From positions 6,736-70,735 of the IMG/VR virus record IMGVR_UViG_3300042880_000408: a stretch of 64,000 nucleotides of DNA. One strand, 5' to 3'. The notes below the pieces were generated by a model. It saw only the letters and a program-made list of their open reading frames with translations. It searched no databases and was not told the origin of the DNA. Below, in pieces: positions 17,901 to 57,248 of this stretch. Position numbers and translations under genes: made by a program. The stretch is from a virus. The stretch's first letter is position 1. Each line of letters begins with the position of its first letter.

Positions 17901-20900
17901 GCGGATCAGAAGACCGGCTTGATGCCTGAGTGGACATGGACTGAAGGTCGTGCTGCTGACATGGAAGAGGCGGGCGATGAAGTTGTTCGCTACTCTCCAG
18001 GTCGTCGAGCAAGTGTTGGAAGAACGGGATTAGCAAACAAGGAAATAGGCGATGAAACGAAAGTATCCAAAGGTTCGGGCGGTAGAGCGTCTCCAGTACG
18101 AAAAGAAGGCGGACGATCCGAATCGACCGGAGACGGAAGAGGACGATATTCGGGCAGGGGCCTTGCGCCGCTTGAGGGCGTCCCATCAAAGCAAGGCTTT
18201 TATGGCCCAGACCCGAGACTGGTTGAAGTCGCAGAAAGATACGCAAAAGAAAACGGAATCGAATTAAAGCGACAAGCCGAGTACGTTGAGGTAGATGTCG
18301 ATCGCGCAAAGCGTATAGCTAACGCATACGCTGAGATGAAGCACGACCCTCAAGACCCCGCAGTAAAAGAGGCGTACGATGAATTGATCAAGCAAACCAC
18401 ATCGCAATACAAAGCGTTGTCGGATGCTGGATACGAGTTTTACTTTATCGACTTGAACAGCGCGGACGGACAGGAGTATGCCTCTACTCCTTGGAACGCT
18501 TTAAGAGATGTTCGCGCCAACAAGCGGATGGGTGTGTTCGCTACTGAGGAGGGGTTTGGATCCTCGGAGGACTTCAATCCGGAGGCTAATCCGCTGCTTG
18601 CGGACACTGGATTTAAGTGGAGTTTAGGAAAAGACGGCCCTAAGAAAAGGGTTCTTGCAAACGATCTGTTTCGCGCCGTGCATGATGCTTTTGGTCATGG
18701 TCTGGAAGGTGCCTCGTTCAGAGCGCGAGGCGAAGAGAACGCATGGCAAGCTCATATTCGTTTGTTTACTGGGCCGGCTCAAGGCGCGATTACCAGCGAG
18801 ACTCGCGGTCAGAACTCGTGGCTGAATTACGGGCCTCACGGTGAGAGCAATCGAAACGCCAAGGTCGAGGACACGATTTTTGCGGATCAGAAGACAGGCT
18901 TGATGCCTGAGTGGACATGGACAGAGGGTCGTGCTGCTGACATGGAAGAGGCAGGCGATGAAGTTGTTCGCTACTCTCCAGGTCGTCAAGCAAAGAGAAA
19001 ACGTGATCCCGAGATCACGAAAGCTGCACAGGATCTGAAAGCTGGTTTGATCGATCGTGATCAGTATCAGAGGATCGTGGATATGCGAATGCCTCTCCGC
19101 AAGTTTGACGAGGTTCCGATTCCGGCCGGCAAAGAAGATATGCTTCGCGGATTAGGCGATCGCAAAGCTGGAGAGCGACTGAAGAGAGATTTAATTCAGA
19201 ATCCAGAAGACATTGCCAAGGGAAGGTTGCTCGAAGCACGATTGGATATTCCGGCCTACGATGAAGAAAACGTCTGGGTGGTCTCTTTACATGAACCTCG
19301 CCCAGATCTGAACAAGGGAAGTGCCGGTCGAGTTGTCGCCTACACTCCGACATCTGTATTTAGAAATGTTACTTTTGGGGTTACCGAAACCGCCGCTCTG
19401 AATATTGCCGCTGGCAAGCCCAAGTCGACAATTGCCACCATGCGAGGCGAGTATGTCCCGATGACTTCGCAGCAAGCTTACGAACTGGCATTGGGTAACA
19501 AGGATCTGTGGGTTGAGATTGGTATGAATCCCATACGTCACACCTACTTCTATGATAAAGACACGCAGACCCCAGTGGTGTCAGCGAAAGAGGTGGTGCA
19601 AGTTGGCGGAATGGTATTAGCTAAGAACCCAGTGTTTGGAAAACGAGAGAACTATCGTTACTCTCCGGGTCGAGGCAATAAAGACGACGTTCTCGCTGCG
19701 TTGTACAAGCACCTCGAGAAGGAAGGGGTAATAAAACCGCAGGCTGTAAATCTTCCGCAAGCCGCTGATGAGAAGACGACCAGTGTTAAGAATCGCAAGA
19801 CAGATGAATTGCGAGAAGAAGCTGGTTATCCACCAAGAACACCGCCAGCAAAGGAGTCCTTTGAAGCATGGGAGTCGCAAGCTCGCCAGAAGTATCCAAC
19901 GGCGAAAGATCGTTTGGAGCTTTTGTCGCAAGCGGAGAGAAACCCAGAGATGCTTGGGAAGATAGAAAGCGCAGCTATTGGTCAGCATATCGCGTATCTG
20001 AACAATCGCAGAGAAGCTGGAGAAAACGTCAGCGCAGAGCTGTTGCGTACGATTAAAGTGGCCAACGTTGTCGGCACGGAAGCTGGTCGCGCGTTAGTTA
20101 GTCGCAAGGCAGAACGCTTCAGCGACTTCTCATTGGCTGGTCTCATTAGCGAACACATCAGGACGGTGGGCAAAGATCCGAGCGAAGCACAGATGCGTGA
20201 GTACGCCGAGCTTGCTGATCGAATCGCGAAGCTTGAGGCTGACAACAGAAAGTTGTCGAGAAAGCTGGCAAGAGAGACCATCAAGAGGAAGAAAGCCGAA
20301 GCAGGCAAGGAGACAGCTCCAAAGCCACAGCCAGAGGAGCCCAAGAAGGGTACTAAGAAGGCGGCATTGGTTAAGAAAGTATCCGATGCCTTTTCGGTGT
20401 TCCAGAATTTGTGGAGCGGTGGCAATCGTCCTGCGGCTCGTCGCAATCTGCGGCCTCAAACAGAAGCTTCTTCACTTAAGATAGCTGGAGATGTAGTTGA
20501 CGGAAGAAAAGTTAAAATTCCTGTTCCTAATATGTCTTCGATAAAAGCAAGCTTAGAAGATTACGAAGTATTAGAAGGAATTCGTGAAGTTCCGCTATCG
20601 AAGTTTAGTGTCACTGGAAAACCAAAGTACTATTCAGTTAGCGAAGAGTCGAGAACCAAGAAGCTCTCGCAACAGATAAAAGACTCTGGCATCATATCTC
20701 CGTTGATAGTTGTTGAAGATAATGAAGGATTTTATGTCCTTGAGGGTGGTCATAGGTTTGATGCACTCAGAGAGTTGGATGCAAAATCGTTTCCCGCTGT
20801 AGTTGTTCGAGACCTTAGCACTGCAAACAGGACTCGTTACTCTCCAGGTCGCCAGACAGAATCATCTGCGTTTAGAGAGTGGTTTGGCGATAGTAAAGTA

Positions 20901-23900
20901 GTGGGCAAGGATGGGAAGCCGTTGGTTGTTTACCACGGAACTTCCTCGGAGTTCACGACTTTTCGAAGGACTAGAACTGGTGAATTTGGGCCTGCTATCT
21001 ATACAACAGCCGACCCGAAGGAAGCTGCGCAATATGGCGTTGGGGCTGGAGCCGGTTTAATGGGCGAACCGCCTGTCAGGGTAATGCCTGTTTATGTTAG
21101 CCTTCAGACTCCATTTACGGGTGGAGTAGATGCTTTCTGGAAGCAATTCGGAGGCGAAGGAGTCACTGATGCCGAGGCTGTACAGAATGCTATAAGCGAA
21201 GGCTACGATGGAGTTATTGCTACTCGCAAGGAGTGGAACGACAAGATACTGACTCATTATATTGCCTTCGAACCCACCCAGATTAAGTCCGCCACTGGCA
21301 ATCGCGGTACGTTCGATCCAAAGAATCCAGACATTCGTTATTCAGCTGGCAGACAACAACCAACTGACGTACGTTCAGCTGCTGAAGGCGTCGTAGCTGC
21401 TCTTAGAGAAGCTGGTGTCAGCTCGGACATTGAACTTGAATTGCAAATCAAGGCAAACATTCCAAACGTCACACCCGAGCAGATGCAGTTGTTCCGAGAT
21501 GCTTGGAACGCCAGCACTGCGAAAAGCAAGATCGATTCTCCAATTGGAAGTAACCCAGACAACGCGGCGATCGGAGCCAGAGCAAAAGAGCTCATGAAGG
21601 CTGCTATCGAGCTTGGATACGGTGCCAAGAAAGAAGACTGGATGGAAATCGTCGATGTTGTTCACTCGCAACTATCGATCGAGGTGCCTGGGATTTCAAA
21701 GTATGAAACCATGCAGGCAATGTCCGACTATGGGTCGTGGCGAGAACTCGACAAGGGCGAAATCGCTGTGAAGACCAGGGCTATTCGAGGTAAGGTAAGG
21801 CAGTCGCTCAAGATTGAAGACACAATCAAGGCGATCGCGCAGAGTCAGGAATGGCTCAAGGCTGGAGTCAGCCCAGATGAGGTGGCTCGTCGTCTGCGAG
21901 ACAAAGGTTTGCTTCCAAAGGCGACTGGTCAGGAACGTGCTACGCCAGACAGCATCGAACGAGATCTCATATCCGAGTTCAACAAACTGAAGAAAACTCT
22001 TCCTGTTCCAGCTGAATCGCGAGAGGGACAATTGAAGTCTGCTCTGAGCACAGCTAAGACGGCAGCGAACAACAGGCTTGAGATGCTTGATAAAGACATT
22101 GCTGCTTTGGAGGAGGCGTTAAAAGATCGCAAGCCACTTGTAAGACCAGTTGCCGAAAAGACCGAGCTCAAGCCCGACGAGGAGCTTGCGAAACTTCGCG
22201 ACCGGTTGGAACAGAAACGACGCCAAAGGGACGAGCTTAAGGCTCAGTACGAAAAGATATTCCCATCCACCAAGCCCAAGAAAGGCCGTAAGACGCTCAC
22301 TGAAGAGCAAAAGCTTGAGGCTGCGATCAAAATGCTAGGAAGACAGATCGTCGCTGTGAAGGCCGACGTAGAGGCTTTAGAGAGTGGGACATGGGCTCCG
22401 CCTTCAGGGCGTTCCAGTGTTACTTCGGATCGCAAAGAAGAGCTCGCGGATGAACTGGCGTCGTTAAGGAAGATTCAAAAGCAAGCGAGGATGGCGAATC
22501 CCGTGTATCAAGCGAGGGAGGAGGCGAAGTACTGGGAGCGTTACCGAAAGGCTCAAGAGAGGCGGCTTGCGTTCTGGGAAAAGCGTCGCGATGAAGCTAA
22601 AGCGGGACGTCTTCCGGTGCCACTGCAAAAGCGAACGGTTACCGAGAAGGCAATACTGGAGAAGAATCTCGAGATCGAGGAAATGCAGTATGAGGCAATG
22701 ATTGCGATCGAAAAGGCGAAGAGAGCTACTTGGAATTTTGGCCAATGGATAGGCCAGGGGATCCTTGAGGCTACCTCGTTGCTTCCTCGCACTCTGATGC
22801 TTGGTATGGAAATGTCCTTCGTGTTGCGTCAGGGGTTCTTCTACACCTACTCGCAGCCTATGAAGGCTTTTGCCGCGCTCGTTGAAGCGGTGCCTGCGGT
22901 GTTCAGTCAGCGTTTAGCATTGGCTTCCATGGAAGACATCGAGAACAGGCCGAACGCGAAAGAGTACGAGCTTGCTAAGGTCGATTTCACACGAGCGACA
23001 GGCCCTCAGGCAAAGCTCGAGGAGTTGTACCAGTCTTCAATTATTAAATGGCTGGAAAGCACCGGTACAAACCTGCTTCTTCCGCTACGTACCTGGGCTA
23101 AGTTGTACGCCATGGCAGAGCGTGGTAACCGCACGTTTTCAAACATCATGAAAGCGGACATGTACGACATTCAAAAACGAGACACGTTAGCGGCAAGAGA
23201 GTTTTTTGGGATAAGCACGGATTGGACTGAGCAGGACATTAAAGAGACGGGTCGCATAGCGAACATTTTTAGCGGTAGAGGCACTGGTCTGAGAGGAAAC
23301 AACCCATGGATGGATTGGCTGTTCCTTGCTAGACGTTGGACTTGGTCTCGCATTCAGGCAGACTTCATTGTTCCTTTCCAGCTCGCGACTCCAGAGTGGA
23401 TCGGTCAGTGGAATGCCGATCGCGGCATGCGAGTCGCTCTCGCAAAGCTTTATATTCGATCACTTGTTGGGCACGCTGCAAAAATGGCTGCGGCGTACTT
23501 CGCGTATTCAATGCTCGCCGGCGACGACGAGGAGGAAAAACCTACGATCGAATTCGACTTGAGATCAAGCGATGCGTTGGCGCTCAAGATCGGTGAGACC
23601 CGGTTCAAGGATGAAGGTGGCTTGATGCCGGCGATCGTGCTTGCATCTCGAATAATGACCGGCACAATCAAGACCGGAAAGGGTGAGATAAAGTCGATCT
23701 ACGGCGAGGACATTGAGTATGGGGGACAAACTGCTGCGGACTTCCTGTTAAATTACGGCAGGTATAAACTGGGCACTGCGCCATCTGCAATACTCGAGTG
23801 GATATCTGGGAGAGACGCGGTGGGAAATGTCGTGAAGAAAACCGACATCGTCACATCGCGAATAGTACCTTTGACATACCGCGAAATATACGCTGCCGAA

Positions 23901-24404
23901 AGCGAGCTCGGGCTTGCCAGAGGCACGTTGGCTGCACTGGAGGCTTTCTTTGGTGTATCGGTGTCGACGCACGGAGAACGAACCAAGTACAAGAAAGCAA
24001 GCGAGCAGGATCGCAAAAAGCAGTTCGAACAAGATCTCAAAGGCATGGAATGGGATTCTCCAGACTTTGCGTACGAAGACCTGCTGACTGACAAGCAAGT
24101 TCAGCAAATGATTGGCCAGCGAGAAAACAAGAAGCAGTCGGTTGTGTATGCGGCGTTGGCCAACCCACAGCGAAACTCGCATCGCAGCGACGAGTCTTAT
24201 CAGCAGTCGATCAAAGAGCGAGACGAGGCGGTTTCCAAGCTGCGGAGAATGAAGGTCGATTTCAACGAGGCGAGACTTCTTCTGCTGGCGTATTACAAGC
24301 GGCAATATGGTTCCGCATACGAAATGCGAGGGAAATCCTACGTTTTGAGAGAAAGCTTTACTCAGCGACTATCGCAACTAAGGAAAGCACTCGAGCAAAA
24401 ATAG
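8913..24404 (+). CDS. Giant polyvalent protein (HExxH metallopeptidase, HhH/glycosylase-like, GNAT, two ART-like, duplicated HDxxGH domain, ParB-like, coiled coil), probable ejection protein
   Basis: 5163-aa ORF; AHELFH 13131-13148; DIVSVFN...LDAFD...GF GNAT-like ~15900-16430; VLEGGHRFDAL ParB-like ~20480-20820; FREWFGDSKVV..GKPLVVYHGT...FEPTQIKSATGNRGTFDPKNPDIRYS ART-PolyVal-like ~20860-21345. Confidence 0.85.
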   Translation: MGDFLEMFREAERQSATGSLAQTTTPEVDGDSASRLFAETTYEDPREQAIIDSRKKYPGNEFLDMFSLVEKKDEVDVRRRQRAFAERSSLSDPDTYIAATRMLLSTGDRYDQLATLRKLTPEQRKLALKLAPGIGQQLGDDRGGAVSQTIDAFSRGVSGYVQAGMEFVGMGGTQEEVDYLRKLNSASQEFAPARPDDPWYQRGAMQAAEMTPAMVTMGGAGVLGGVAGKAAGTAIGRAAAAGVPGAKAAFQAAGAVGRIPAAIGMKGATTKSVFAGAGSSAGVAASSLPQMYSQERESLRELGMEDDWKLRLLAGATAVVGGLVESIVPNPFAGSMSIRNGAMNAARKYLWEAVKRYPLELSEEGLQGVTSGLGEYVAQYIASEKELDFGDGEVVKSNGVKKKTIADAFKKGWEQTKESALPLAFLIGVPAVGGAGVSAANARRYQLESETFRNGLFGDDGENAFPDVSSFKDIGGGEEDLASVRARRMLLEGVVAQESVSRDEARQFGLIGKREKVNAKERLVRATEELNRLRERENSLMSVSGQSDLQAATQMPIPSPEITDTASPTSIPQPSQASSPPAPSAIPPSQGNTARRSDYLVQTQSNGEVNVAVLRSEDGSAALFVGDARVPIQYNAEAAAGKSDQELLAYSLDPLGFQGAVEMPQAGSPQGQPVQQSSVADVRAPIAPPQATGQQAGVGTVQPQVQPQQAQPGMQQPLQPPPVVSPGVNGAVPLQTATQNMPLRNQQAPAPASPFDSQLAGSQVQGVNTQQSPSAIARPTVQAGIQSGQLPTNPFVEGEQQQETPQQPKGGLQGAVESLDRAADNDHKSIRRAGDSVDDVLSYHGEMGIKADGSEDPYETVDPSVGVKFDAHGLSKGTPDSQARQLDSLLSNGVDSSRDFFTAPFEVDKDNKAALAAGLGTAGGTARKNGVAVVTGGYGLSIKDGGIVNVFINDAMKELKAAVEAKYGKIYNVHFLSEQKAVLESQAAKQSEQLPTNPFDSQQELPQSTNPFDEESGQHSPQVGKELWQKRLEEVESGLTSTDDYVQWESAVRQAISNGEDVPADVLEDFQNWEELGAALDGSTKESQPTTQSNSVAKSETSSKTDEGRPGPSEQAAADSTEPPVERKLKRGKKLKVGSSVTDSKTGEQLTVDEVIHSNWGLAKSGDQVVLVNLNNGSTYERGRRERILEKMKMEGIGGLSSEQEPAVTKGKKAPGEEAPKASKKKKKRAAGNKSTAKKSAGAKSSLSGLSDQDLRNLATAMGVDVADRDNASIIEELANNESVKRFFENAKPEADATPSSKRNRPAAPRDDRKSKDSIPGEILNGDENTREVPSSEFNSNEQKQERILKRLGVTLRIIEGNNWGIPGMFFPRSMSIWLNRRYISSFDKMWLNSGRPKESMTWGLFAHELFHAIKEVAPKTWNRLYTWVSKNDPSNLGKAKVAYLANFIDLFENVLQEDIDAWVARDPKNRSKANIKIPSKVSVAEQLDSVIKAMEKFPSIEGESLISDLTSNAAENVREVLGSKDIQNNEGLSRYLEDRAGFFNFWDKLGEKDPGLLAKVGRWILRVLRLAEPGETNPNTLAGQARQAIERAMKERSVDYPPRQRRAAATRQKDRKARTLDEVRSRVAKDYALTVSTDPMLQINGEPFAKLDPNKTGDGLLIDDADNSMRRMMDESLREAGVPEEIASTVKVPSSEEVDYAFRLTNGSRYWYELSAVGFVKDFFGLSSKLTERLIDIIAGTSGGQKPTDNLRIGVAAMSQDMQGRPVSVGTRDESSLTAALSPATLETHKFGNFSDTMQVLGGLRPGVKPLPTIDLQMAKVFGVQHAAIASDPRMYEAMSRFLIKLRNAQNDMLKDNEQPYESWQIQAMLWVAQRDTSDPDSYNIGMPKVVAQLKQAGIATPGGRITIETLMDPRTSDVLAPTSKIIPEAYTATIETRTKLTKVGKESAGIFEKLKSIDAPWARNLIDEFEKIQRRTMRAIGNRQPPKPGNKTRQRSVASQLISVIMNKSPGSHELSRVDTEAWGTFEGDASPNVRLPLNLSQTGSSEEGGGTKRYTPTTNHKQQFLSVLGKHLKQAAQAASQFVSTTYGSHDTFSILVRRYDKVDITEAELAGISAGLGRPVSYKKVPNGWQLDVNIGGMDETAEQKAENRDVQRIHAVMQEFASTGSIEYKILPRAYDSVYIDASEYSKHIRRLENEIQRNVDTGGSREGVGYPSERRASDYANVVEQIKSIAAEQESAFRRWTKDAREIAAKRGINLEGEREGGRRASPGRRGKDATIAIRRSLGADGRVWSRSSDRRKVGGYDLVARYRADAPEWAEAGVSAPVFVELKKSEKSARQFSEAITAARESQGKMGASVYVYPDQDYRDMRLFLTEDGETGFALKDTGEAGITDIVSVFNTSGGTHRGVVYSMIRLAVEEGGNTLDAFDTFLPGVYSANGFKAVSRIKWSDDFALEGWDKASYAEFNNGEPDIVFMAYDPQQTDLYTNDSGDGEVFGDYYEAVASQRAAAIKSKGKRNGKKKQGGRRRASPGRGDEGLREDPGQDRSEYDKKRMGETPAYGKPREGAVSYVGRHYSPQPQVSLSGKFYATNVSKFSGGESKRLRNSSDSRIKNRVYFYINTAGEIKPEMGVGVYAHEVQLDNLYDPDSNLIPTSLNANDFESAVIDAGFDGYIAKPYGMAVLLGPQHAEVPVRRATEYDVGRRASVGRTGLANKEIGDETKVSKGSGGRASPVRKEGGRPESTRDGRGRDQGRKIAPLAGSPSVSGFNGPDPEIVAVAERYAKENGIELKRQAEYVNVDEDRAKRIASAYEQMKHDPQDPRVKEAYQELIKQTIAQYKALADAGYKFWFTDLNVPSNVEYLSSPYNSLRDLRNNKQMGVFPTSDGFGTSDLDVNDNPLLADTGFMWPSGGIDGELKPVLANDLFRAVHDAFGHSLEGAGFRARGEENAWQAHVRLFYGSAVGAITSETRGQNSWLNYGPYGEKNRTAKVEDTVFADQKTGLMPEWTWTEGRAADMEEAGDEVVRYSPGRRASVGRTGLANKEIGDETKVSKGSGGRASPVRKEGGRSESTGDGRGRYSGRGLAPLEGVPSKQGFYGPDPRLVEVAERYAKENGIELKRQAEYVEVDVDRAKRIANAYAEMKHDPQDPAVKEAYDELIKQTTSQYKALSDAGYEFYFIDLNSADGQEYASTPWNALRDVRANKRMGVFATEEGFGSSEDFNPEANPLLADTGFKWSLGKDGPKKRVLANDLFRAVHDAFGHGLEGASFRARGEENAWQAHIRLFTGPAQGAITSETRGQNSWLNYGPHGESNRNAKVEDTIFADQKTGLMPEWTWTEGRAADMEEAGDEVVRYSPGRQAKRKRDPEITKAAQDLKAGLIDRDQYQRIVDMRMPLRKFDEVPIPAGKEDMLRGLGDRKAGERLKRDLIQNPEDIAKGRLLEARLDIPAYDEENVWVVSLHEPRPDLNKGSAGRVVAYTPTSVFRNVTFGVTETAALNIAAGKPKSTIATMRGEYVPMTSQQAYELALGNKDLWVEIGMNPIRHTYFYDKDTQTPVVSAKEVVQVGGMVLAKNPVFGKRENYRYSPGRGNKDDVLAALYKHLEKEGVIKPQAVNLPQAADEKTTSVKNRKTDELREEAGYPPRTPPAKESFEAWESQARQKYPTAKDRLELLSQAERNPEMLGKIESAAIGQHIAYLNNRREAGENVSAELLRTIKVANVVGTEAGRALVSRKAERFSDFSLAGLISEHIRTVGKDPSEAQMREYAELADRIAKLEADNRKLSRKLARETIKRKKAEAGKETAPKPQPEEPKKGTKKAALVKKVSDAFSVFQNLWSGGNRPAARRNLRPQTEASSLKIAGDVVDGRKVKIPVPNMSSIKASLEDYEVLEGIREVPLSKFSVTGKPKYYSVSEESRTKKLSQQIKDSGIISPLIVVEDNEGFYVLEGGHRFDALRELDAKSFPAVVVRDLSTANRTRYSPGRQTESSAFREWFGDSKVVGKDGKPLVVYHGTSSEFTTFRRTRTGEFGPAIYTTADPKEAAQYGVGAGAGLMGEPPVRVMPVYVSLQTPFTGGVDAFWKQFGGEGVTDAEAVQNAISEGYDGVIATRKEWNDKILTHYIAFEPTQIKSATGNRGTFDPKNPDIRYSAGRQQPTDVRSAAEGVVAALREAGVSSDIELELQIKANIPNVTPEQMQLFRDAWNASTAKSKIDSPIGSNPDNAAIGARAKELMKAAIELGYGAKKEDWMEIVDVVHSQLSIEVPGISKYETMQAMSDYGSWRELDKGEIAVKTRAIRGKVRQSLKIEDTIKAIAQSQEWLKAGVSPDEVARRLRDKGLLPKATGQERATPDSIERDLISEFNKLKKTLPVPAESREGQLKSALSTAKTAANNRLEMLDKDIAALEEALKDRKPLVRPVAEKTELKPDEELAKLRDRLEQKRRQRDELKAQYEKIFPSTKPKKGRKTLTEEQKLEAAIKMLGRQIVAVKADVEALESGTWAPPSGRSSVTSDRKEELADELASLRKIQKQARMANPVYQAREEAKYWERYRKAQERRLAFWEKRRDEAKAGRLPVPLQKRTVTEKAILEKNLEIEEMQYEAMIAIEKAKRATWNFGQWIGQGILEATSLLPRTLMLGMEMSFVLRQGFFYTYSQPMKAFAALVEAVPAVFSQRLALASMEDIENRPNAKEYELAKVDFTRATGPQAKLEELYQSSIIKWLESTGTNLLLPLRTWAKLYAMAERGNRTFSNIMKADMYDIQKRDTLAAREFFGISTDWTEQDIKETGRIANIFSGRGTGLRGNNPWMDWLFLARRWTWSRIQADFIVPFQLATPEWIGQWNADRGMRVALAKLYIRSLVGHAAKMAAAYFAYSMLAGDDEEEKPTIEFDLRSSDALALKIGETRFKDEGGLMPAIVLASRIMTGTIKTGKGEIKSIYGEDIEYGGQTAADFLLNYGRYKLGTAPSAILEWISGRDAVGNVVKKTDIVTSRIVPLTYREIYAAESELGLARGTLAALEAFFGVSVSTHGERTKYKKASEQDRKKQFEQDLKGMEWDSPDFAYEDLLTDKQVQQMIGQRENKKQSVVYAALANPQRNSHRSDESYQQSIKERDEAVSKLRRMKVDFNEARLLLLAYYKRQYGSAYEMRGKSYVLRESFTQRLSQLRKALEQK
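11268..11910 (+). repeat. 31-bp direct repeat (30/31 identical, QLPTNPF) flanking a ~190-aa module
   Basis: caatccggacagcttccaacaaacccgtttg at 11268-11298 and caatccgaacagcttccaacaaacccgtttg at 11880-11910. Confidence 0.9.
17019..18986 (+). repeat. Tandem in-frame 981-bp duplication inside the giant ORF
   Basis: Units start at 17019 and 18000; first ~117 bp identical, last ~105 bp nearly identical, middle diverged; both encode NDLFRAVHDAFGH...RARGEENAWQAH...ETRGQNSWLNYGP. Confidence 0.95.
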
Positions 24405-28386: not shown

Positions 28387-28459
28387 GCTCCCATAGCGTA
28401 TTGGTAGCGCGTCGCAACCTTTGCGTTGCGAAGGAACGGTTCGAATCCGGTAAGGGGCT
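28387..28459 (+). tRNA. Degenerate tRNA-like element (possibly Gln/TTG-derived)
   Basis: TAGC..TGGTA D-loop, GGTTCGAATCC T-loop; anticodon arm TCGCAAC/GTTGCGA with a non-canonical loop; imperfect acceptor and T stems. Confidence 0.5.
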
Positions 28460-50923: not shown

Positions 50924-51586
50924 ATGTCCTATCTCAACGTAAACATCCCGTTCTTTTGGGGTTTTCTCGATACTGCGTTTCTGCACGACAAGGAACCCAG
51001 CGCGAAGAACGAGCGGATCCCGATGGAATTCTTCCTGTACACATCGATTCCGAATCGGTGCGGACTGTTTACCGGCATGAGCGAGTACGGAACTCAGCAT
51101 GCAAGGATCCCCATTCACTACATCCACACCGAGCCATCCGGAGGCAAAGACTACCCTCTCGATTTCCTGCAACTGTGGGACAGCTTCAGTTACCATTGCT
51201 CGGCGTTGACCTTTGACTACGTGAAGAATCGCAGTTGCAAGGTGCTTCTTAAAGATCGATCAATCGTCGACGGAACTTACATGTTCACGCTCGATTGGTG
51301 TAACGGAGGGTACAGCGAGATCGCTGCCGGTCACAAGACTGGTCACGTGATCAACGCAGACGGTCGCGTGTTCATTCAGCCCAACAACCGCATCGTGCGA
51401 TGGAATGACGGTGGTGCGTTTACAAGCAAGACGATCAAGGGGCGTCCCGACTGGAAAGTGTTCAGCCAGGAGTTTAGTTGCGAGGCATCTGCTGGTCGCT
51501 GGGTGGCCGACAGCGACGAGGAGCTGTATTGGTACGACTTCAAAGAAGCAGATGGGGTGGTTGACGGCAAAGCCCCAGGATCGTAA
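50924..51586 (+). CDS. Conserved phage hypothetical protein
   Basis: MSYLNVNIP...LQLWDSFSY...YMFTLDW...HKTGH...QPNNR; GGAG RBS. Confidence 0.7.
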   Translation: MSYLNVNIPFFWGFLDTAFLHDKEPSAKNERIPMEFFLYTSIPNRCGLFTGMSEYGTQHARIPIHYIHTEPSGGKDYPLDFLQLWDSFSYHCSALTFDYVKNRSCKVLLKDRSIVDGTYMFTLDWCNGGYSEIAAGHKTGHVINADGRVFIQPNNRIVRWNDGGAFTSKTIKGRPDWKVFSQEFSCEASAGRWVADSDEELYWYDFKEADGVVDGKAPGS

Positions 51587-52040
51587 CATTGGAAGTGCTG
51601 AGTGGATTCGGCACAGAGAAAGAGACATAATTCGATCATCAACATTCGCCTTCGGGCGTCTATTCGTGCGTGTCTCTTTCGCACCGCTCTCCCCTAAATC
51701 CACATCTGGGGGAGAGCACGTATATGGCATGAGTGTAATGCCGGGCAACCGGCGCTTGTGCCTGCAATCGTTTGAGCTTTTTGCCCGATCTGTGGAAGAC
51801 CGCCAAAGTGCATGGGATTGAGTCAGCGAAGCGTCCTACGGCGTGGAGGGGCTCTTAACCTCAAGGGTCGAACAGGAGCAGCAGGCTGGCGGCGAGTGGA
51901 CGCAGGAAGAGGGAACGGCGAGAAAGCAATGTAGGTTGCTCGCCTCTTAACTTTTCCGAGTAAGCTCGCTGGTCAGTACCAGGAAAATATCCTGGTTTCC
52001 GGCAACGAGCGAGATTGCATACCTTATATGGGCCTGGGGT
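51572..52040 (+). ncRNA. Large putative structured ncRNA (~470 nt)
   Basis: Terminal helix 51572-51585/52027-52040, about ten internal helices, cUUCGg and GCAA tetraloops, no convincing ORF. Confidence 0.65.
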
Positions 52041-52047
52041 GCGCCAA

Positions 52048-52656
52048 TTACTGAATTGTTGTCAGCTGCTCTGACTTCTTAGAATACCGCACAGCGGTGC
52101 GCAAGCTGACGCCAAGCACCTTTGCCACCTCTTCGTGAGTCAAGCCTTTCTTCCGTAGCTCTATCGCTTGAGCTGGATCAACTCCAGCCTTTACCGCTCC
52201 TGGCTTCCGTCCAGTGTAAACACCTCGTTCCTTCGCCGCTGCAATTCCTGCTGCTTGGCGATTTCTTCGAGAAAGCGTCTCCCACTTGGCTATAGTAAAC
52301 ATGATTGCAGCAAACATCTGCCCAATTGGGCCTGAGTAGTCCATCTGCTCTGATGTCGAGACAAGCCGAATTCCCTTCTTGCACCATTCACCAAGAACTA
52401 AAACTCCGTCGTGCATATCTCGAGAAATTCGATCGAGCTTGTAGACTACGACGGTGTTGATCGTACCGTTAAAAATGTCCTTCTGCAGTTGTTCAAACTC
52501 AGGACGCTTAAGCGTTTCTCCGCTTTCCTTATCGGTGTACCACATCGCATCGCTTGGATTGATTCCGTTGCCAGTCAACCACTTCATGACTTCTCGCCTT
52601 TGCCCAGCCTCATTCTGCGATGCCGTGCTAACTCGAATGTAAACCGCTACCGTCAT
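52048..52656 (-). CDS. Small serine recombinase (resolvase/invertase)
   Basis: YIRVST, DKESG...RP, VYKLDRISR, GIAAAKERG...GRKPG, C-terminal HTH. Confidence 0.93.
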   Translation of the reverse strand: MTVAVYIRVSTASQNEAGQRREVMKWLTGNGINPSDAMWYTDKESGETLKRPEFEQLQKDIFNGTINTVVVYKLDRISRDMHDGVLVLGEWCKKGIRLVSTSEQMDYSGPIGQMFAAIMFTIAKWETLSRRNRQAAGIAAAKERGVYTGRKPGAVKAGVDPAQAIELRKKGLTHEEVAKVLGVSLRTAVRYSKKSEQLTTIQ

Positions 52657-52702
52657 TGAAAATCTCCATTGCAATAAAAACCATCGATGAAAAACCATCG
52701 GA

Positions 52703-52826: not shown

Positions 52827-53123
52827 ATGAAGCGGATCGAAGTAAAAACAGGATCGAAATACGGAAGTCTTACGGTCGTGCGCGAGGTTGCGAACCTTGG
52901 AAAGCGCAAATTCCGATGCAAGTGTTCTTGTGGAAACGAAGTTGACATCCGCCTTGATCACCTTCAAAGCGGTCACACCTCATCGTGTGGAAGTTGCGGA
53001 ATCGAGCATGCCGGCAAGAGGATGACGCTCAAGCAGTGGGCAAGCTTGTACGGACTCAAGGAATCGACTTTGAGGGCAAGGTTGAAGACGATGGACATGC
53101 GAGAAGCGTTGGAGCGATCGTGA
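52827..53123 (+). CDS. Truncated homing-endonuclease-like protein (DNA-binding ends only)
   Basis: G.KYG.LTVV...CKCSCGN...L.SG.TSSCG joined directly to GKRMTLKQWA...TLRARL; no HNH core. Confidence 0.6.
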   Translation: MKRIEVKTGSKYGSLTVVREVANLGKRKFRCKCSCGNEVDIRLDHLQSGHTSSCGSCGIEHAGKRMTLKQWASLYGLKESTLRARLKTMDMREALERS

Positions 53124-53129
53124 AACTTG

Positions 53130-53157
53130 TTGACACGGAAAATTGCTCAGGTATAGT
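53130..53157 (+). promoter_or_regulatory. Putative promoter of the packaging/head operon
   Basis: TTGACA-16 nt-TATAGT. Confidence 0.55.
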
Positions 53158-53194
53158 TTGGTTTCTTGCTCACTCACCAGAGCAAATCTCCAGG

Positions 53195-53227
53195 GGCTGT
53201 GTGACGCGAGTTACGCAGCCTTTTTTT
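53195..53227 (+). terminator. Rho-independent terminator upstream of terL
   Basis: GGCTGTGTGAC-GCGA-GTTACGCAGCC followed by T7. Confidence 0.8.
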
Positions 53228-53258
53228 ATTCACTAGGCGAATGTTGCAAGAGTGGTAG

Positions 53259-55163
53259 ATGTCGTCGCCTTTCTACGATCTAGTTCCAAAAGACCCTGTT
53301 GAAAACCTCAAGTGGCGAATCCGTTGCCGCGAGCGAGCTTTGGTCGACGAGCGATTCCGAGATGCCTTGATGCAGGCATGCGAGCTTGATGTTCTTTTCT
53401 TCTTTGCGTTCGCTCTGTGGGTGCATGAACCTCGAGCCAAGATTAAAACCAAGCCGTTCATCCCCTGGAAGCACCAAGAGTCCGTGATCACGATGATGGA
53501 CGATGCGATCACAGAGGCGATGAACATTGAACACCCCGTTTCAGTCACGATCAAGAAAAGCCGAGCCCAGGGGGGGACATACACGTATCTGGGGGTTCAA
53601 ATTCGCAGGGCGCTGATCGAAAAGGGATTTTCCACTGGATTGGTGACGCGGAATGAAAAGACGGTGGATTCCAAGGATCCGTCTGCGGTGATGAACAAGT
53701 TGTCGGAAATGCTCGACAAGCTTCCGTTTTGGATGCTGGGTGAGCCTTACCAGAGAAACACCACCGACCATACGATTCGCTTACCGAAAACCGATTCGGT
53801 GTGGATCGGATACTCGGCAACTGCTGACGTCGCTCGTGGTGGTCGAACGACGCTGTTCGCTTTCGACGAAGTTGGCTCGGAGGAGTTCATTTCCGGTGGG
53901 ATCGACTACAAGATCATGTCTAGCGTTGCCTATGTAACGAACTGCATATTCTTGTGCTCAACCTTCGGCGCCGATGCCGGCGTGTTCTACGAGTCTGCAA
54001 CCGATCCGGACAACCCGGGTGTATGCTCGCTCGATTGGCGAGACAATCCGGAGCATGCAAGGCTTTCGTACATCAGGAAAGACGGCGAATACAAGGCGGT
54101 CAATCCCGAAGACCAGGAAGAGGTTGATAAGTACATCGCATCGCACGAGCGAGAATTGCGATCGATCGAGCGAAAAGGCTTTAAGATCGATGGGAAGGTC
54201 AGATCGCCATGGTACGACTCGCACTGCTTGGCTCCCGGGGCGACTCCGAGGTACATTGCTCGAGAATTGGACATGGATCCAAAAGGATCGGCAGGAAAGG
54301 TGTTCATGCCCGATCTGCTCGACCGCATGAAAAAGGAGCACAGCAAAAAGCCAGTCTGGAGAGGGGTTCCAGTATTCGACAGCGAAACCCTCAAGCTTAC
54401 TGGATTGGTTCCTCGGGATGACGGCCCGTTGTCTCTTTGGTTCAAGCCAGGGATCGATGATAGCGTTCCTGCCGGCCCGTTTGCGATCGCTTGCGATATT
54501 GCATCAGGTGGCGTTGGTGCTTACTCCTCGAACTCTGTAGCTTCTGGACTGGACACTCGCACCGGCGAGCAGGTTCTTGAGTACGCGATCAAGGGACTTG
54601 AGCCAAGACCGTTTGCGAGGATGGTGGTCGGTCTGAGCTTGTGGATGCGAAAGGCGCTTCTTGGATGGGAAGACTCCGGAGTGTCCGGTGGCTTTGCAAA
54701 GGAAGTTGTCGAGGTATGCAACTACGGCAATGTCTATTACCGCGAGGTCATGCAGCTCGGGTCGCAGAAGAAAAGTCGCAAAGCTGGGTTTCCATGCCGA
54801 GACGCGGACAAGTCGGACATGTTCGAACGGTTTGCGTTAGCGATGGAGCAAGGTAGCTACATTCCGCGATCGGAAGAGATGCTTACTGAGTGCGGCGAGT
54901 ACGAATGGGACGGAGGCAAGATCATCCATGCACCGACCAAGAATAAGGGTGCTACGGAGAAGAATCACGGCGACCGAGCGATCTCTGCCGCTGGCGTGTG
55001 GCTTGTCTTCGCAAGCGATTATTTGGTCGGTAAAGTTGACAGTGACGTTGAAACAGGTCAGAATCCAGAATATGGTAGCTTCTTATGGAGGGAGCAGCAG
55101 GAGAGACGCAAGGTGAATGCTGGTAGTCCGAGTTACGGAATACGCAACGTACTGCGATCTTGA
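53259..55163 (+). CDS. terL: Terminase large subunit
   Basis: KSRAQGGT Walker A, FAFDE Walker B, IACDIASG and HGDRAIS nuclease motifs. Confidence 0.9.
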   Translation: MSSPFYDLVPKDPVENLKWRIRCRERALVDERFRDALMQACELDVLFFFAFALWVHEPRAKIKTKPFIPWKHQESVITMMDDAITEAMNIEHPVSVTIKKSRAQGGTYTYLGVQIRRALIEKGFSTGLVTRNEKTVDSKDPSAVMNKLSEMLDKLPFWMLGEPYQRNTTDHTIRLPKTDSVWIGYSATADVARGGRTTLFAFDEVGSEEFISGGIDYKIMSSVAYVTNCIFLCSTFGADAGVFYESATDPDNPGVCSLDWRDNPEHARLSYIRKDGEYKAVNPEDQEEVDKYIASHERELRSIERKGFKIDGKVRSPWYDSHCLAPGATPRYIARELDMDPKGSAGKVFMPDLLDRMKKEHSKKPVWRGVPVFDSETLKLTGLVPRDDGPLSLWFKPGIDDSVPAGPFAIACDIASGGVGAYSSNSVASGLDTRTGEQVLEYAIKGLEPRPFARMVVGLSLWMRKALLGWEDSGVSGGFAKEVVEVCNYGNVYYREVMQLGSQKKSRKAGFPCRDADKSDMFERFALAMEQGSYIPRSEEMLTECGEYEWDGGKIIHAPTKNKGATEKNHGDRAISAAGVWLVFASDYLVGKVDSDVETGQNPEYGSFLWREQQERRKVNAGSPSYGIRNVLRS

Positions 55164-55457: not shown

Positions 55458-57248
55458 ATGTTTGACCTATCCAATCCTGAAAAGCTGAGCAGACTGCACA
55501 AGGCGATACGCTCCTCGCGTGACGCATTGGAGCCTTTTCGTCGTGTTCGCAAGGAACTGATCAAGGATTATGTCGGCTCTTGGTACGCTGAATCCGGCGC
55601 TGAGAGCAAGACAATGGTTAACCTAATTAACCAGACAGCTCGCATTTACACGATTGCGTTAGCTGCAAACAATCCTAAGGTGTTGGTGTCCACACCTCGA
55701 GTCGAAACCCTGCCGTTTGCTAGGCGATTTGAAGTCAATCTGAGCAAGCTTATAGGCGACATGTCGCTTGATAAGACTTTCCGCTCAATCGTCATGGATG
55801 CGTTCTTCTGCCTCGGCTGTGGTGTCACCATGATGCGTGATACCGACACGAGGTTTCATGGACTGCTTGGGGCTGAGGAAGATGTCTGGCTGGATCCAGG
55901 TGAGCCATGGTTCAATAGGGTTTCGCTCGACGATCTGATTCTTGACATGCCGGCTAAAGAGCTGAGCAAAATGCGATACTGCGGTCATCGCTACCGAGCT
56001 GACTATGAAAAGGTCATGGATGAGCCCGGTTACAACAAGAAGGCAAAAGAAAAGCTGAAGCCAACATCGCGAGAGCATCATGATTCTGTGGGTGCAGCGA
56101 GAGACATTGCCTCTGATTGGGGGAGTGCAGAAGACGACGACCTGAAAGATATGGTCTGGTTGATGGACGTTTGGATCGCGGAAAACAACTCCATTGTGAC
56201 AATGGCGTGCGATCAGGAGGGAATCCCACCACTGATTGAGCGCAAATGGATCGGATCGCAAGCCGGCCCATACAAATTCCTTTCGCTCGGTGACACTCCG
56301 GACAACATTATTCCAACATCTCCGGCAATCAACCTCAAGGGTATGCACGATCTTCAGAATCGATTGCATAGGCGGATGGAAGAGGATTCAGACGCTCACC
56401 GCGTCGTAAATGTCTATCCTCCTGGCATGGATGACGAGGCTGAAAGGCTTAGAACTGCTCAAAGAAATGGTTGGTATCGCGCCAGGAATCCAGAGCAAAT
56501 TAAGCAATTCGAGAGTGGTGGTGTTGATCAGCGAGACATGGCTTTAGCTACGTTCTTGCAAGGCGAATTTGATCGGTTTGCTGGAAACTTGCAGGCGATG
56601 GGCGGTCTCGGTCAGCAAGCTTCGACGCTGGGTCAGGAAGAATTGATACACGGAAACGTTTCCAAAAACGTGGCAGACATGCGAATGGCGGTTGTCAACT
56701 TCGCCTCTGAGTGCATTCTCGATCTCGGAAGGCTGATGTGGGAAGACGCTTCGCTCGAGTTGAAAACGTCGATGCCTGTTGGAAATGCTGGGGTCATGGT
56801 CGATTCCGACTGGACTCCAGATTACCGAGTTGGAAATTTTGAGGATTACGAATTCCGAGTCGAGCCATATTCGATGGTGTTCAAGACTCCAGAGCAGAAG
56901 CTTCAAGAGTTGTTTCAAGTGTTGCGCGAGATCGCTCCGCTTTGGCCGATGTTCCAGGCTTCCGGTGCGACGATCGATGCGCAGGCAATTGTTGAGGAAA
57001 TAGCTCGCCTGAAGAACCGTCCGGAGTTTGAGAAATTCATTACGTTCGCCTCGCCTGCTGCGATGCTTGGTGGAGACGAGAACACGATCAGGCAGTCTCC
57101 GGTGACAACGAGAGAGACGATTCGAAGGAACGTTAGCAGCGGCGGCACAGAGCAAGCTAGAAACAACGCGATGATACAAACATTGATGGGCGGAAGTCCG
57201 CAGATCAATTCGCAGCAAAGAAGCTCAATGTTGCAGGGGATGGGGTGA
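55458..57248 (+). CDS. Portal protein
   Basis: 596 aa directly after terL; size, position and helical layout typical of podovirus-type portals. Confidence 0.75.
   Translation: MFDLSNPEKLSRLHKAIRSSRDALEPFRRVRKELIKDYVGSWYAESGAESKTMVNLINQTARIYTIALAANNPKVLVSTPRVETLPFARRFEVNLSKLIGDMSLDKTFRSIVMDAFFCLGCGVTMMRDTDTRFHGLLGAEEDVWLDPGEPWFNRVSLDDLILDMPAKELSKMRYCGHRYRADYEKVMDEPGYNKKAKEKLKPTSREHHDSVGAARDIASDWGSAEDDDLKDMVWLMDVWIAENNSIVTMACDQEGIPPLIERKWIGSQAGPYKFLSLGDTPDNIIPTSPAINLKGMHDLQNRLHRRMEEDSDAHRVVNVYPPGMDDEAERLRTAQRNGWYRARNPEQIKQFESGGVDQRDMALATFLQGEFDRFAGNLQAMGGLGQQASTLGQEELIHGNVSKNVADMRMAVVNFASECILDLGRLMWEDASLELKTSMPVGNAGVMVDSDWTPDYRVGNFEDYEFRVEPYSMVFKTPEQKLQELFQVLREIAPLWPMFQASGATIDAQAIVEEIARLKNRPEFEKFITFASPAAMLGGDENTIRQSPVTTRETIRRNVSSGGTEQARNNAMIQTLMGGSPQINSQQRSSMLQGMG

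What the first reader, a model, noticed from the sequence alone, without database searches (positions are those of the whole stretch)
51572..52040. Large, closed, multi-branched putative ncRNA of unknown class
Seen on +: closing helix GCCCCAGGATCGTA(51572)/TATGGGCCTGGGGT(52027); GAAAGAGACA(51618)/TGTCTCTTTC(51671) enclosing CGCC-UUCG-GGCG; GCTCTCCCC(51686)/GGGGAGAGC; GGCATGAGT/GCTTGTGCC enclosing GCCGG-GCAA-CCGGC; long-range TGCAATC(51763)/GATTGCA(52013); nested GGCGAGT/GCTCGCT, GGAAGAG/CTTTTCC, GGCGAG/CTCGCC; ACCAGGA/TCCTGGT. G-U pairs and tetraloops favour the + strand. I see no RNase P, tmRNA or group I/II intron signature. Known: phages carry large RNAs of unclear function such as GOLLD and ROOL. 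Inference: a new large phage ncRNA, possibly catalytic or packaging-related given its position before terL.
Basis: partly seen in the sequence, partly recalled or inferred. Interest (0 to 1): 0.82.

Follow-up and report, generated by a model that had tools for sequence, protein, structure and literature searches.

The report
New large structured phage RNA gene
A freshwater phage carries a gene with its own promoter for a roughly 450-base, intricately folded non-coding RNA that matches no known RNA family, joining the few large phage RNAs whose job is still unknown.

Summary
Window 51595-52045 (+) encodes a ~450-nt structured RNA. It folds far better than shuffles on + (z -5.8 and -4.4) than on - (z -2.9). 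It matches no Rfam 15 family. I found 27 distinct loci, all in uncultured phage or metagenome contigs, none in 185,579 reference genomes.

- **Structure:** on 24 distinct sequences, a curated 97-pair structure is 97% paired, against 37-43% when slid. 34 pairs carry double compensatory changes (0 of 500 shuffles reach this).
eight of nine are supported. The outermost "closing helix" is not: its 5' arm lies in the promoter spacer and is not conserved.
- **New here:** a conserved TTGAC-N17-TAnnnT promoter ending 4-8 nt before the first hairpin. In two divergent relatives a tRNA-Met sits between promoter and RNA. A 7-bp kissing interaction joins the P1 and P3 loops, with six compensated variants. 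An ~86-nt centre is nearly invariant.
- **Context:** a serine-recombinase-like gene always ends 0-66 nt after the RNA, convergently. Sister phages keep that gene without the RNA, so this looks like synteny.
- **Expression:** metatranscriptome contigs from four studies lie inside the RNA.

Function is unknown. My best guess is a stable trans-acting RNA particle, as ROOL and GOLLD are thought to be. Catalysis or a packaging role is untested.

The parts
51561..51589 (+). Sigma-70-type promoter of the RNA: -35 TTGACG (51561-51566), 17-nt spacer, -10 TAACAT (51584-51589). The -10 overlaps the stop codon TAA (51584-51586) of the upstream gene.
   Evidence: Found by the consensus scan. A -35/-10 pair with a 16-17 nt spacer is present in 20 of 20 distinct upstream regions and ends 4-8 nt before P1. 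In L102/L103 it ends 6 nt before an interposed tRNA-Met.
51595..52045 (+). The non-coding RNA gene, about 451 nt here and 447-509 nt in relatives. The 5' end is inferred from the promoter. The 3' end is set at the last invariant base.
   Evidence: No Rfam family. No reading frame kept across homologues.
51595..51614 (+). P1 hairpin (GUGCUGA...UCGGCAC). Its loop carries GUGGAUU (51602-51608).
   Evidence: Forms in 18 of 19 distinct 5' domains folded alone. In L103 the segment folded began after P1, and P1 appears in the full fold. Compensated pairs.
51618..51680 (+). P2, a long hairpin with a variable sequence and length and a UUCG-capped tip.
   Evidence: The basal stem differs in sequence but stays paired in all 19 distinct 5' domains, for example GAAAGAGACA/UGUCUCUUUC against GGUAGGAUU/AAUCCUACC and GACAGGAGC/GCUCCUGUC.
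51686..51717 (+). P3 hairpin (GCUCUCCCC/GGGGGAGAGC). Its loop carries AAUCCAC (51697-51703).
   Evidence: Helix 1: 11 pairs, 4 with changes on both sides, 99.2% of cells paired.
51602..51703 (+). Loop-loop (kissing) interaction between the P1 loop GUGGAUU (51602-51608) and the P3 loop AAUCCAC (51697-51703).
   Evidence: 7 of 7 Watson-Crick pairs in 21 of 24 sequences and 6 of 7 in the other 3. Six compensated variants: AUU/AAU, UUU/AAA, CUU/AAG, AAU/AUU, CAC/GUG, AAA/GUU. Mismatched partners among the 7 distinct loop pairs give 7 of 7 in only 4 of 42 combinations.
51719..51724 (+). 5' strand (CGUAUA) of the helix that closes the core. It pairs with 52025-52030 (UAUAUG).
   Evidence: Helix 2: 6 pairs, 2 with changes on both sides (U-A to A-U in 5 sequences, A-U to U-A in 2), 93.6% paired. 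Register found.
51726..51762 (+). P4 and P4a hairpin (GGCAUGAGU...GCUUGUGCC around GCCGG-GCAA-CCGGC).
   Evidence: Helices 3 and 4: 7 of 14 pairs have changes on both sides, 99-100% paired.
51764..51788 (+). 5' strands of the long-range helices P5 (51764-51769) and P6 (51776-51778, 51782-51788). Their partners lie at 51998-52018.
   Evidence: Helices 5-7: 15 pairs, 4 with changes on both sides.
51790..51875 (+). Nearly invariant central domain (P7 and sub-helices), including AGACCGCCAAAGUGCAUGGGA and UAACCUCAAGGGUCGAACAGG.
   Evidence: Helices 8-11 never vary in 24 sequences. Helices 12 and 13 each have one compensated pair. Invariant columns listed.
51885..51977 (+). P8-P9 long arm (GGCGAGU/GCUCGCU, GGAAGAG/CUUUUCC, GGCGAG/CUCGCC). 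In 9 relatives it holds an extra hairpin of about 31-37 nt.
   Evidence: Helices 14-17: 29 pairs, 15 with changes on both sides. Insertion seen.
51978..51996 (+). P10 hairpin (ACCAGGA/UCCUGGU).
   Evidence: All 9 distinct versions fold as a 6-8 bp hairpin with different stem sequences, for example CCAGG/CCUGG, CACGG/CCGUG, UACGGG/CCCGUA and UCAGGG/CCCUGA.
51998..52030 (+). 3' strands of P6 (51998-52010), P5 (52013-52018) and the closing helix (52025-52030).
52031..52045 (+). 3' tail GGCCUGGGGUGCGCC. CCUGGGGUGCGC is invariant. Its partner, if any, is unknown.
   Evidence: Invariant in 24 of 24 sequences. It is complementary to the linker CGCAC(C) before P3 in many but not all sequences, so that pairing is unproven.
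52048..52698 (-). Context only: a convergent small serine-recombinase-like gene (Resolvase domain plus HTH). Its stop codon lies 3 nt after the invariant RNA end. The true start is probably the internal ATG (about 202 aa).
   Evidence: Pfam Resolvase E 4.2e-31. PHROG 125 'DNA invertase' E 1.5e-47. Present next to the RNA in every locus that has downstream sequence. Also present without the RNA in sister phages.

Best explanation
Window 51595-52045 (+) is a free-standing gene for a new family of large (about 450-510 nt) structured non-coding RNA. It is carried by one lineage of uncultured freshwater tailed phages.

Shown:
- The RNA has its own conserved sigma-70-type promoter. In the most divergent relatives a tRNA-Met sits between that promoter and the RNA.
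- It folds into a 5' domain of three hairpins (P1, variable P2, P3), locked by a 7-bp P1-loop/P3-loop pairing.
- A closed multi-helix core follows, whose roughly 86-nt centre is almost invariant.
- Homologues keep the pairs through many compensatory changes.

Inferred:
- Host RNA polymerase transcribes it as a discrete, stable RNA. In the tRNA-linked form it would be released by tRNA processing.
- It acts in trans as a compact RNA or RNA-protein particle, as is thought for the large phage-borne RNAs ROOL and GOLLD. It does not act as a cis-regulatory leader.
- The invariance of the centre, while the phage proteins around it drift to 39-60% identity, suggests it contacts a conserved host component or is itself catalytic.

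The actual target and activity are unknown.
For: **Fold.** z -5.80 on + against -2.89 on -. z -4.42 for the trimmed RNA and -4.04 for homologue L103.

**Homologues.** 7 of 80 loci that share the upstream gene carry the RNA. Further loci came from three motif scans of viral contigs and one of metagenomes. That makes 27 distinct loci and 24 distinct full-length sequences including the window.

**Covariation.** RNAalifold finds 89 pairs, 28 of them compensated. The curated structure of 97 pairs is 97.1% paired, against 37-43% when slid by 1-3 columns. 34 pairs have changes on both sides, against 18.5 +/- 1.9 in shuffles (0 of 500 shuffles reach it).

**Strand.** Invariant G-U pairs occur on +.

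**Promoter.** 20 of 20 distinct upstream regions have one (for the window). In L102/L103 the promoter is followed by a tRNA-Met (Rfam tRNA 51.8 bits; ARAGORN) and then by P1 five bases later.

**Kissing loops.** 21 of 24 sequences are fully complementary, with six compensated variants.

**Not coding.** The longest stop-free frame differs in strand, frame and place among homologues.

**Not cis-regulatory for a downstream gene.** The next gene is convergent.

**Expression hint.** Contigs from four RNA libraries of four studies (165-411 nt) fall inside 51684-52011. The X17 contig also has an 81-nt end that does not fit this window's variable P2.

**Analogy.** ROOL and GOLLD are phage and prophage RNAs often found near tRNA islands. 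GOLLD env-38 lies downstream of a Met-tRNA. [quoted passage not shown]
Against: - No experiment shows a discrete transcript. The RNA-library evidence is contigs only, found with this sequence as bait. They show neither strand nor level, and DNA carry-over cannot be excluded.
- No terminator follows the RNA. In 17 of 24 distinct downstream regions (the window among them) the convergent gene's stop codon lies 0-12 nt after the last invariant base. So the 3' end is undefined, and read-through antisense to that gene is possible.
- All members come from one syntenic phage lineage. Part of the conservation is therefore shared ancestry, and the shuffle control overstates significance for related sequences.
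- The central domain never varies, so its helices are untested by covariation.
- The trans-acting, ROOL/GOLLD-like mode of action is analogy only. Those RNAs themselves have no known function.
Confidence: 0.6

Rival explanations
1. A cis-antisense regulator. The promoter drives a transcript whose structured 5' part stabilises it. The transcript runs on into the convergent serine-recombinase-like gene and controls it by transcriptional interference or by forming duplex RNA.
For: - There is no terminator-like site on + between the RNA end and 53192.
- The recombinase stop codon lies 0-12 nt after the RNA in 17 of 24 distinct downstream regions, and 41 or 66 nt in the rest.
- The RNA is never seen without that gene: 26 of 27 loci have it, and the 27th ends at the contig edge.
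Against: - Sister phages keep the recombinase gene in the same place without any such RNA. 17 TerL loci have the gene and no RNA by nhmmer or by the covariance model. In 7 of 8 examined, a convergent reading frame abuts the gene instead.
- A 380-nt core with an invariant centre and a kissing loop is far more than an antisense RNA needs.
- In L102/L103 the recombinase has lost its catalytic residues, yet the RNA is kept.
Confidence: 0.13
2. A new large ribozyme. It either processes itself (for example cutting near 52011 or forming its own 3' end) or acts on another RNA such as the phage or host tRNAs.
For: - The centre of about 86 nt is nearly invariant, inside a compact, pseudoknotted fold.
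- The RNA is linked to a tRNA in L102/L103.
- Two RNA-library contigs from two studies both stop at 52011 without a loose end, 34 nt before the conserved 3' end. The tool itself calls this a weak hint.
Against: - There is no similarity to any ribozyme family in Rfam, even at E up to 10.
- The strands downstream of 52011 pair with the core with compensated changes, so they belong to the functional RNA.
- Contig ends can come from assembly.
- ROOL, GOLLD and OLE are similarly large, conserved RNAs and have no known catalysis (my recollection; PMC12286853 passages say only that their functions are unknown).
Confidence: 0.09
3. An assembly or packaging RNA. The P1 and P3 loops pair between molecules, building a ring or cage that works with the terminase or portal (as phi29 pRNA does) or encloses cargo (as proposed for ROOL and GOLLD).
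For: - The covarying loop-loop complementarity is the same kind of signal that defines the pRNA ring (my recollection).
- The RNA lies 1.1-2.7 kb upstream of terL in every locus.
- No small terminase subunit was recognised between the recombinase gene and terL.
Against: - Sister phages with TerL about 70% identical package DNA without this RNA.
- P1 and P3 flank the same three-hairpin junction, so pairing within one molecule is the simpler reading.
- There is no match to the pRNA family.
Confidence: 0.07
4. A DNA-level element rather than an RNA: an invertible or recombination segment for the neighbouring serine recombinase, or a cos/pac region.
For: - A resolvase/invertase-type gene is adjacent.
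- The window has the 7-bp inverted match CCCCAGG/CCTGGGG at the two ends and a 14-nt, 86% inverted repeat at 51552-51565/52574-52587.
Against: - Neither inverted repeat arm at the 5' side is conserved.
- All 27 loci have the same orientation relative to the recombinase and TerL.
- The G-U pairs and the strand asymmetry fit RNA, not DNA.
- The recombinase is catalytically dead in L102/L103 while the element is kept.
Confidence: 0.03

Closest known systems
GOLLD RNA (Rfam RF01998) and ROOL RNA (Rfam RF03087), large 'ornate' RNAs of phages and prophages. The accession numbers are recalled, not taken from a call.
   Same: Like them, this is a large, multi-branched, pseudoknotted RNA encoded by a phage as a free-standing gene, sometimes right behind a tRNA. 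GOLLD env-38 lies downstream of a Met-tRNA, and here a tRNA-Met precedes the RNA in L102/L103. As in GOLLD, the 3' part is conserved and the 5' part is variable. Function is unknown in all three (PMC12286853 passages).
   Different: There is no sequence or structure match to either family, even at E up to 10. At about 450-510 nt it is shorter than the roughly 580 nt I recall for ROOL and the more than 800 nt reported for many GOLLD members. Its distribution is narrow: one freshwater phage lineage, with no hit in reference bacterial genomes. Oligomerisation is untested.
phi29-type packaging RNA (pRNA)
   Same: Both are phage-encoded structured RNAs with a covarying loop-loop complementarity, and this one lies near the packaging genes. 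The pRNA features are recalled, not tested.
   Different: This RNA is about 2.6 times longer, has no Rfam match and is absent from sister phages with the same terminase. The two loops here sit on neighbouring hairpins of one junction, so the pairing may be within one molecule.
IS110 bridge RNA / seekRNA (RNA partners of recombinases)
   Same: A structured RNA is encoded next to a recombinase gene, with one variable region (P2).
   Different: The recombinase here is a small serine recombinase, not a DEDD IS110 enzyme. The RNA is convergent and has its own promoter. The recombinase family occurs without the RNA. The enzyme is inactive in L102/L103. No consistent complementarity of the variable region to flanking DNA was found.
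Candidate structured RNAs of the IMG/VR catalogue (Fremin et al. 2023, PMC10690425)
   Same: That study mined the same data source, IMG/VR phage contigs, by covariation. Pieces of this RNA could be among its 8495 unnamed candidates.
   Different: Those candidates average 67 nt (passage seen). The text passages I saw mention candidates upstream of resolvase genes, not a 450-nt RNA downstream of one.

Membership tests
Any Rfam 15 family (4227 models, including GOLLD, ROOL, OLE, raiA, HEARO, RNase P, tmRNA, group I/II introns and pRNA) | Score at or above the family's gathering threshold | tested here: not met
   There were 0 matches in the whole window. At E up to 10 on 51300-52300 only two structure-less eukaryotic lncRNA models matched (E 4.9 and 0.39), one at the 3' edge of the RNA and one outside it. 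On L103 the matches were the neighbouring tRNA, a - strand SscA match at 28.3 bits against a threshold of 60, and a - strand Plastid-ycf2 match over the tRNA (14.7 bits against a threshold of 65.7, E 5.9). On L085 only a miRNA model matched, at E 6.7.
tmRNA | tRNA-like domain plus a tag reading frame, detectable by ARAGORN | tested here: not met
   ARAGORN found only tRNAs in the window, L102 and L103.
GOLLD / ROOL-type phage RNA (functional kind, not homology) | Free-standing large structured RNA gene in a phage, often beside tRNA genes | tested here: met
   Own promoter in 20 of 20 distinct upstream regions. tRNA-Met immediately upstream in L102/L103. Phage context with TerL and portal.
GOLLD / ROOL-type phage RNA (functional kind) | Homo-oligomeric cage formation | not testable with these tools
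   This needs native gels or cryo-EM. The covarying loop-loop pairing could be within or between molecules.
Group I intron | Inserted in a host gene whose exons continue on the same strand, and a match to the Rfam model | tested here: not met
   The upstream gene is complete (its match covers profile positions 1-213 of the 223 in PHROG 3704). The downstream gene is on the other strand. The tRNA-Met in L103 is complete. There is no Rfam match.
RNA partner of the adjacent recombinase (bridge-RNA-like) | Strict co-occurrence with the recombinase family, and guide segments complementary to target or donor DNA | tested here: not met
   The recombinase occurs without the RNA in 13 of 13 other contexts and in 17 sister TerL loci. 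Complementarity between the RNA and downstream DNA is inconsistent among loci.
Intrinsically terminated small-RNA gene | Stem-loop plus U-run at the 3' end | tested here: not met
   There is no terminator-like site on + between 51590 and 53192.

The most novel reading that the evidence does not exclude
The covarying P1-loop/P3-loop pairing acts between molecules. The RNA then assembles into a homo-oligomeric ring or cage, a further natural RNA-only assembly after ROOL, GOLLD and phi29 pRNA, made late in infection next to the packaging genes.
Probability: 0.1. Interest if true: 0.8.

Novelty: new variant of a known kind. Interest (0 to 1): 0.66.

Why it matters
Large, intricately folded bacterial and phage RNAs are rare. 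Those studied so far proved to be ribozymes, ribonucleoprotein scaffolds or, recently, self-assembling cages. This one is well suited to experiment:

- It is only about 450 nt long.
- It has a defined promoter.
- A kissing loop with natural compensatory variants gives ready-made mutants.
- An invariant centre marks a likely active or binding site.

If its function can be found, it may also shed light on why phages carry such RNAs beside tRNA genes, a question still open for ROOL and GOLLD.

Tried and rejected
1. **P2 loop as antisense to the terL leader.** In the window, 51640-51651 is perfectly complementary to 53235-53246, 13 nt before the terL start. No such match recurs in the other 22 distinct loci scanned. 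About 0.2-0.4 such matches are expected by chance (my estimate). Rejected.

2. **An 11-nt complementarity between P2 and terL codons.** It seemed to covary between the L008 and L004 groups. The site varies only by synonymous codon changes. L003 and the window do not match. Rejected as chance.

3. **The recombinase as an obligate partner.** The first search by close peptide words found no relatives. tblastn then showed the gene next to every RNA. A profile scan and a TerL scan showed the gene widely without the RNA.

4. **More distant RNA homologues.** A covariance model of the invariant core (R1) found nothing in 86 loci that lack the RNA. In the 80 TerL loci it found only the 12 loci that nhmmer had already found to carry the RNA, plus one 17-bit match at E 0.52. 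A full-length model could not be built, because the tool is limited to 400 columns and by calibration time.

5. **Reference genomes.** Two motif scans gave 0 hits, so no host or prophage was identified.

6. **GenBank phages.** There was no DNA match. TerL is at most 27% identical over at most 51% of its length to cultured phages.

7. **Read laying.** The flanking genes had no cover in the four RNA-library contig sets. The runs were found with the RNA as bait and are contigs, so this is not evidence that the neighbours are silent.

9. **The paper 10.64898/2026.10.21.760802.** It has none of the terms resolvase, serine recombinase, invertase, terminase or phage in its main text.
Full report
**Where it lies.** The window is bases 6736-70735 of a 70,735-bp IMG/VR virus record rated 100% complete. 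The finding sits in a 461-nt gap between two genes:
- The + strand gene 50924-51586 (PHROG 3704, labelled 'ferredoxin', E 4.6e-37).
- The - strand gene 52048-52698, a small serine recombinase (Pfam Resolvase E 4.2e-31 plus a helix-turn-helix; PHROG 125 'DNA invertase').

Further right on + are a 98-aa gene (52827-53123), the large terminase (53259-55163) and the portal (55458-57248). So the RNA is not directly 'before terL'. A convergent gene lies in between.

- The + strand of 51572-52040 folds to -198.2 kcal/mol. Shuffles average -163.1 +/- 6.1, giving z -5.80, and 0 of 100 do as well.
- The - strand gives z -2.89.
- Rfam 15 has no match at gathering thresholds in the whole window. At E up to 10 around the site there are only two chance matches, to eukaryotic lncRNA models that have no base pairs.
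- Two divergent homologues were scanned the same way. They gave only the neighbouring tRNA and sub-threshold noise.
- ARAGORN finds no tmRNA.

**Homologues.**
- Of 80 viral loci that encode a relative of the upstream protein, 7 carry the RNA. These are the 82-91% identical ones, but not all of those. A profile search at E up to 10 adds none.
- Scans of IMG/VR for three invariant motifs gave 20, 21 and 21 stretches. One metagenome scan gave 13.
- After removing duplicates there are 27 distinct loci. Including the window, there are 24 distinct full-length RNA sequences of 447-509 nt.
- Two motif scans of one genome per 185,579 prokaryotic species found nothing. GenBank phages have no DNA match. 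The closest cultured-phage TerL is 27% identical.
- Public runs that hold the sequence are labelled lake, freshwater or aquatic metagenomes, with one marine. 14 runs hold at least half of the sampled words.

**Promoter and 5' end.**
- All 20 distinct upstream regions have a -35-like hexamer (TTGACA or TTGACG in 16, with TCGACA, TTGCCA and TTGCGT in the rest), a 16-17-nt spacer and TAnnnT. The first hairpin begins 4-8 nt after the -10.
- In the window these are 51561-51566 and 51584-51589. The -10 overlaps the stop codon of the upstream gene.
That stretch is not conserved among homologues, while the 3' arm is invariant.
- In the two most divergent loci (L102, L103) the same kind of promoter is followed by a complete tRNA-Met, and the RNA's first hairpin starts five bases after the tRNA. 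That implies a tRNA-RNA co-transcript from which tRNA processing would free the RNA. The processing step is inference.

**Structure.**
- On the 24-sequence core alignment (A3) RNAalifold predicts 89 pairs, 28 of them compensated.
- I curated this to 97 pairs in 17 helices. I added the closing helix 51719-51724/52025-52030 and the P9 pairs, and removed a small 3' hairpin that clashed with them.
- Counting gives 97.1% of 2316 cells paired, against 37-43% when partners are slid by 1-3 columns.
- 34 pairs have changes on both sides, against 18.5 +/- 1.9 in shuffles. 150 cells have such changes, against 43.6. In each case 0 of 500 shuffles reach the observed value.
- The sequences are related, so the shuffle control is generous. 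The slide control is not affected by relatedness.
- Helices 8-11 (window about 51790-51875) never vary, so they are neither supported nor contradicted.
- The 5' domain was folded sequence by sequence. P1 appears in 18 of the 19 distinct 5' domains folded alone, and for L103 it appears in the full fold, because the segment folded alone began after P1. A long P2 hairpin forms in all 19 versions although P2 differs widely in sequence and length. All 9 distinct P10 versions form a 6-8-bp hairpin with different stems.

- The P1 loop (GUGGAUU, 51602-51608) is complementary to the P3 loop (AAUCCAC, 51697-51703).
- Across the 24 sequences, 21 have 7 of 7 Watson-Crick pairs and 3 have 6 of 7.
- The three variable positions change together in six ways (AUU/AAU, UUU/AAA, CUU/AAG, AAU/AUU, CAC/GUG, AAA/GUU).
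- Among the 7 distinct loop pairs, mismatched partners reach 7 of 7 in only 4 of 42 combinations.
- This is either a kissing-loop lock of the 5' domain or an intermolecular contact. The sequence cannot tell which.

**The 3' end.**
- The last 12-15 nt (CCUGGGGUGCGC) are invariant. They are followed by no terminator.
- The convergent gene's stop codon lies 0-12 nt beyond them in 17 of 24 distinct downstream regions, 41 nt in 2 and 66 nt in 5.
- The tail is complementary to the linker CGCAC(C) before P3 in many members but not in all. I leave its partner open.

**The neighbouring recombinase.**
- It is present, convergent, in 26 of 27 loci. The 27th ends at the contig edge.
- In L102/L103 it is only 38-39% identical. 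It has lost the catalytic motif (YVRVST to YVFANK, and DRLSRS to NRIACS) while the RNA is kept.
- The gene family is much wider than the RNA. 13 of 13 further viral loci with a relative have no RNA.
- Among 80 TerL loci, 12 have the RNA, all with TerL at least 79% identical. 17 have the recombinase in the same place without the RNA.
- In 7 of 8 of those that I read, a + strand reading frame ends within about 130 nt of the recombinase stop.
- A covariance model of the invariant core found no hidden copies.
- I therefore read the RNA as a gene inserted at a convergent junction in one clade, and the recombinase link as synteny.

**Expression.**
- Contigs from four metatranscriptomic libraries of four studies (165-411 nt, 85-99% identical) lie within 51684-52011.
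- One carries 81 further bases that match a relative's P2.
- Two contigs (X15 and X17) stop at 52011 with no loose end.
- These are contigs found with the RNA as bait, so they show presence in RNA libraries, not strand or level.
- The shared stop is a weak hint of a processed end. The downstream strands pair with the core with compensated changes, so the primary RNA extends further.

**What it is and how it may work.**
- Shown: a promoter-equipped, strongly structured, conserved + strand RNA of a new family.
- Inferred: it is a stable trans-acting particle.
- The nearest analogues are ROOL and GOLLD. Both are large phage and prophage RNAs, often next to tRNA islands. GOLLD env-38 lies behind a Met-tRNA, and GOLLD has a conserved 3' region and a variable 5' region. 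Their functions are unknown, and both assemble into cages (passages of PMC12286853).
- Membership in those families was tested by Rfam and failed. The likeness is of kind, not of descent.
- The rivals (an antisense regulator of the recombinase, a ribozyme, a packaging or assembly RNA, a DNA-level site) are listed with their tests.
- A protein-coding reading is excluded. The longest stop-free frame changes strand, frame and position among homologues, and the substitutions are pair-compensating.

**Novelty.**
- I found no description in Rfam 15 or in three full-text searches.
- The IMG/VR catalogue of short candidate RNAs (PMC10690425, passages only) may contain fragments of it.

Noticed in passing
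L102:7957-8565 (+) and L103:5258-5866 (-): The serine-recombinase-like protein next to the RNA in these two loci has lost the catalytic Arg and Ser (YVRVST becomes YVFANK) and part of the DRLSRS motif, but keeps its length and the C-terminal helix-turn-helix. It may survive as a DNA-binding protein only.
   Followed up: partly
window 53130-53223: A near-consensus + strand promoter (TTGACA-16-TATAGT, 11 of 12 matches) is followed within 35 nt by a 14-bp terminator-like hairpin with a T-run, just upstream of the terL start (53259). The layout recalls a late promoter under antitermination control.
   Followed up: no
window 52730-52703 (-) and 52698/52656: A near-consensus - strand promoter ends 5 nt before the first ATG of the recombinase reading frame. 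Homologues start 14-16 codons further in (M-x-V-A-A-Y-V-R-V-S-T), so the real start in the window is probably the internal ATG.
   Followed up: partly
window 8913-24404 (+): A single open reading frame of 5163 codons. Its first 2000 residues match no PHROG family.
   Followed up: partly
window 28387-28459 (+): ARAGORN calls a tRNA of undetermined identity with a two-base 'anticodon' (tt). It may be an odd tRNA-like element or a false call.
   Followed up: no
L216, L222, L193, L196, L227, L233 (TerL matches of about 2800 nt instead of about 1900 nt): In several relatives the TerL match spans about 900 extra bases, so the terminase gene seems to be interrupted by an insertion (an intron, intein or homing-endonuclease gene?).
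   Followed up: no
window 52827-53123 (+): A 98-aa gene lies between the recombinase gene and terL in all RNA-bearing loci that reach that far downstream and in most sister phages. It resembles an internal part of PHROG 374 'HNH endonuclease' (E 6.3e-15). No small terminase subunit was recognised in this module.
   Followed up: partly
window 52011: Two RNA-library contigs from different studies both end at this base, 34 nt before the conserved end of the RNA, with no loose end. Unexplained: it could be a processing site or an assembly effect.
   Followed up: no
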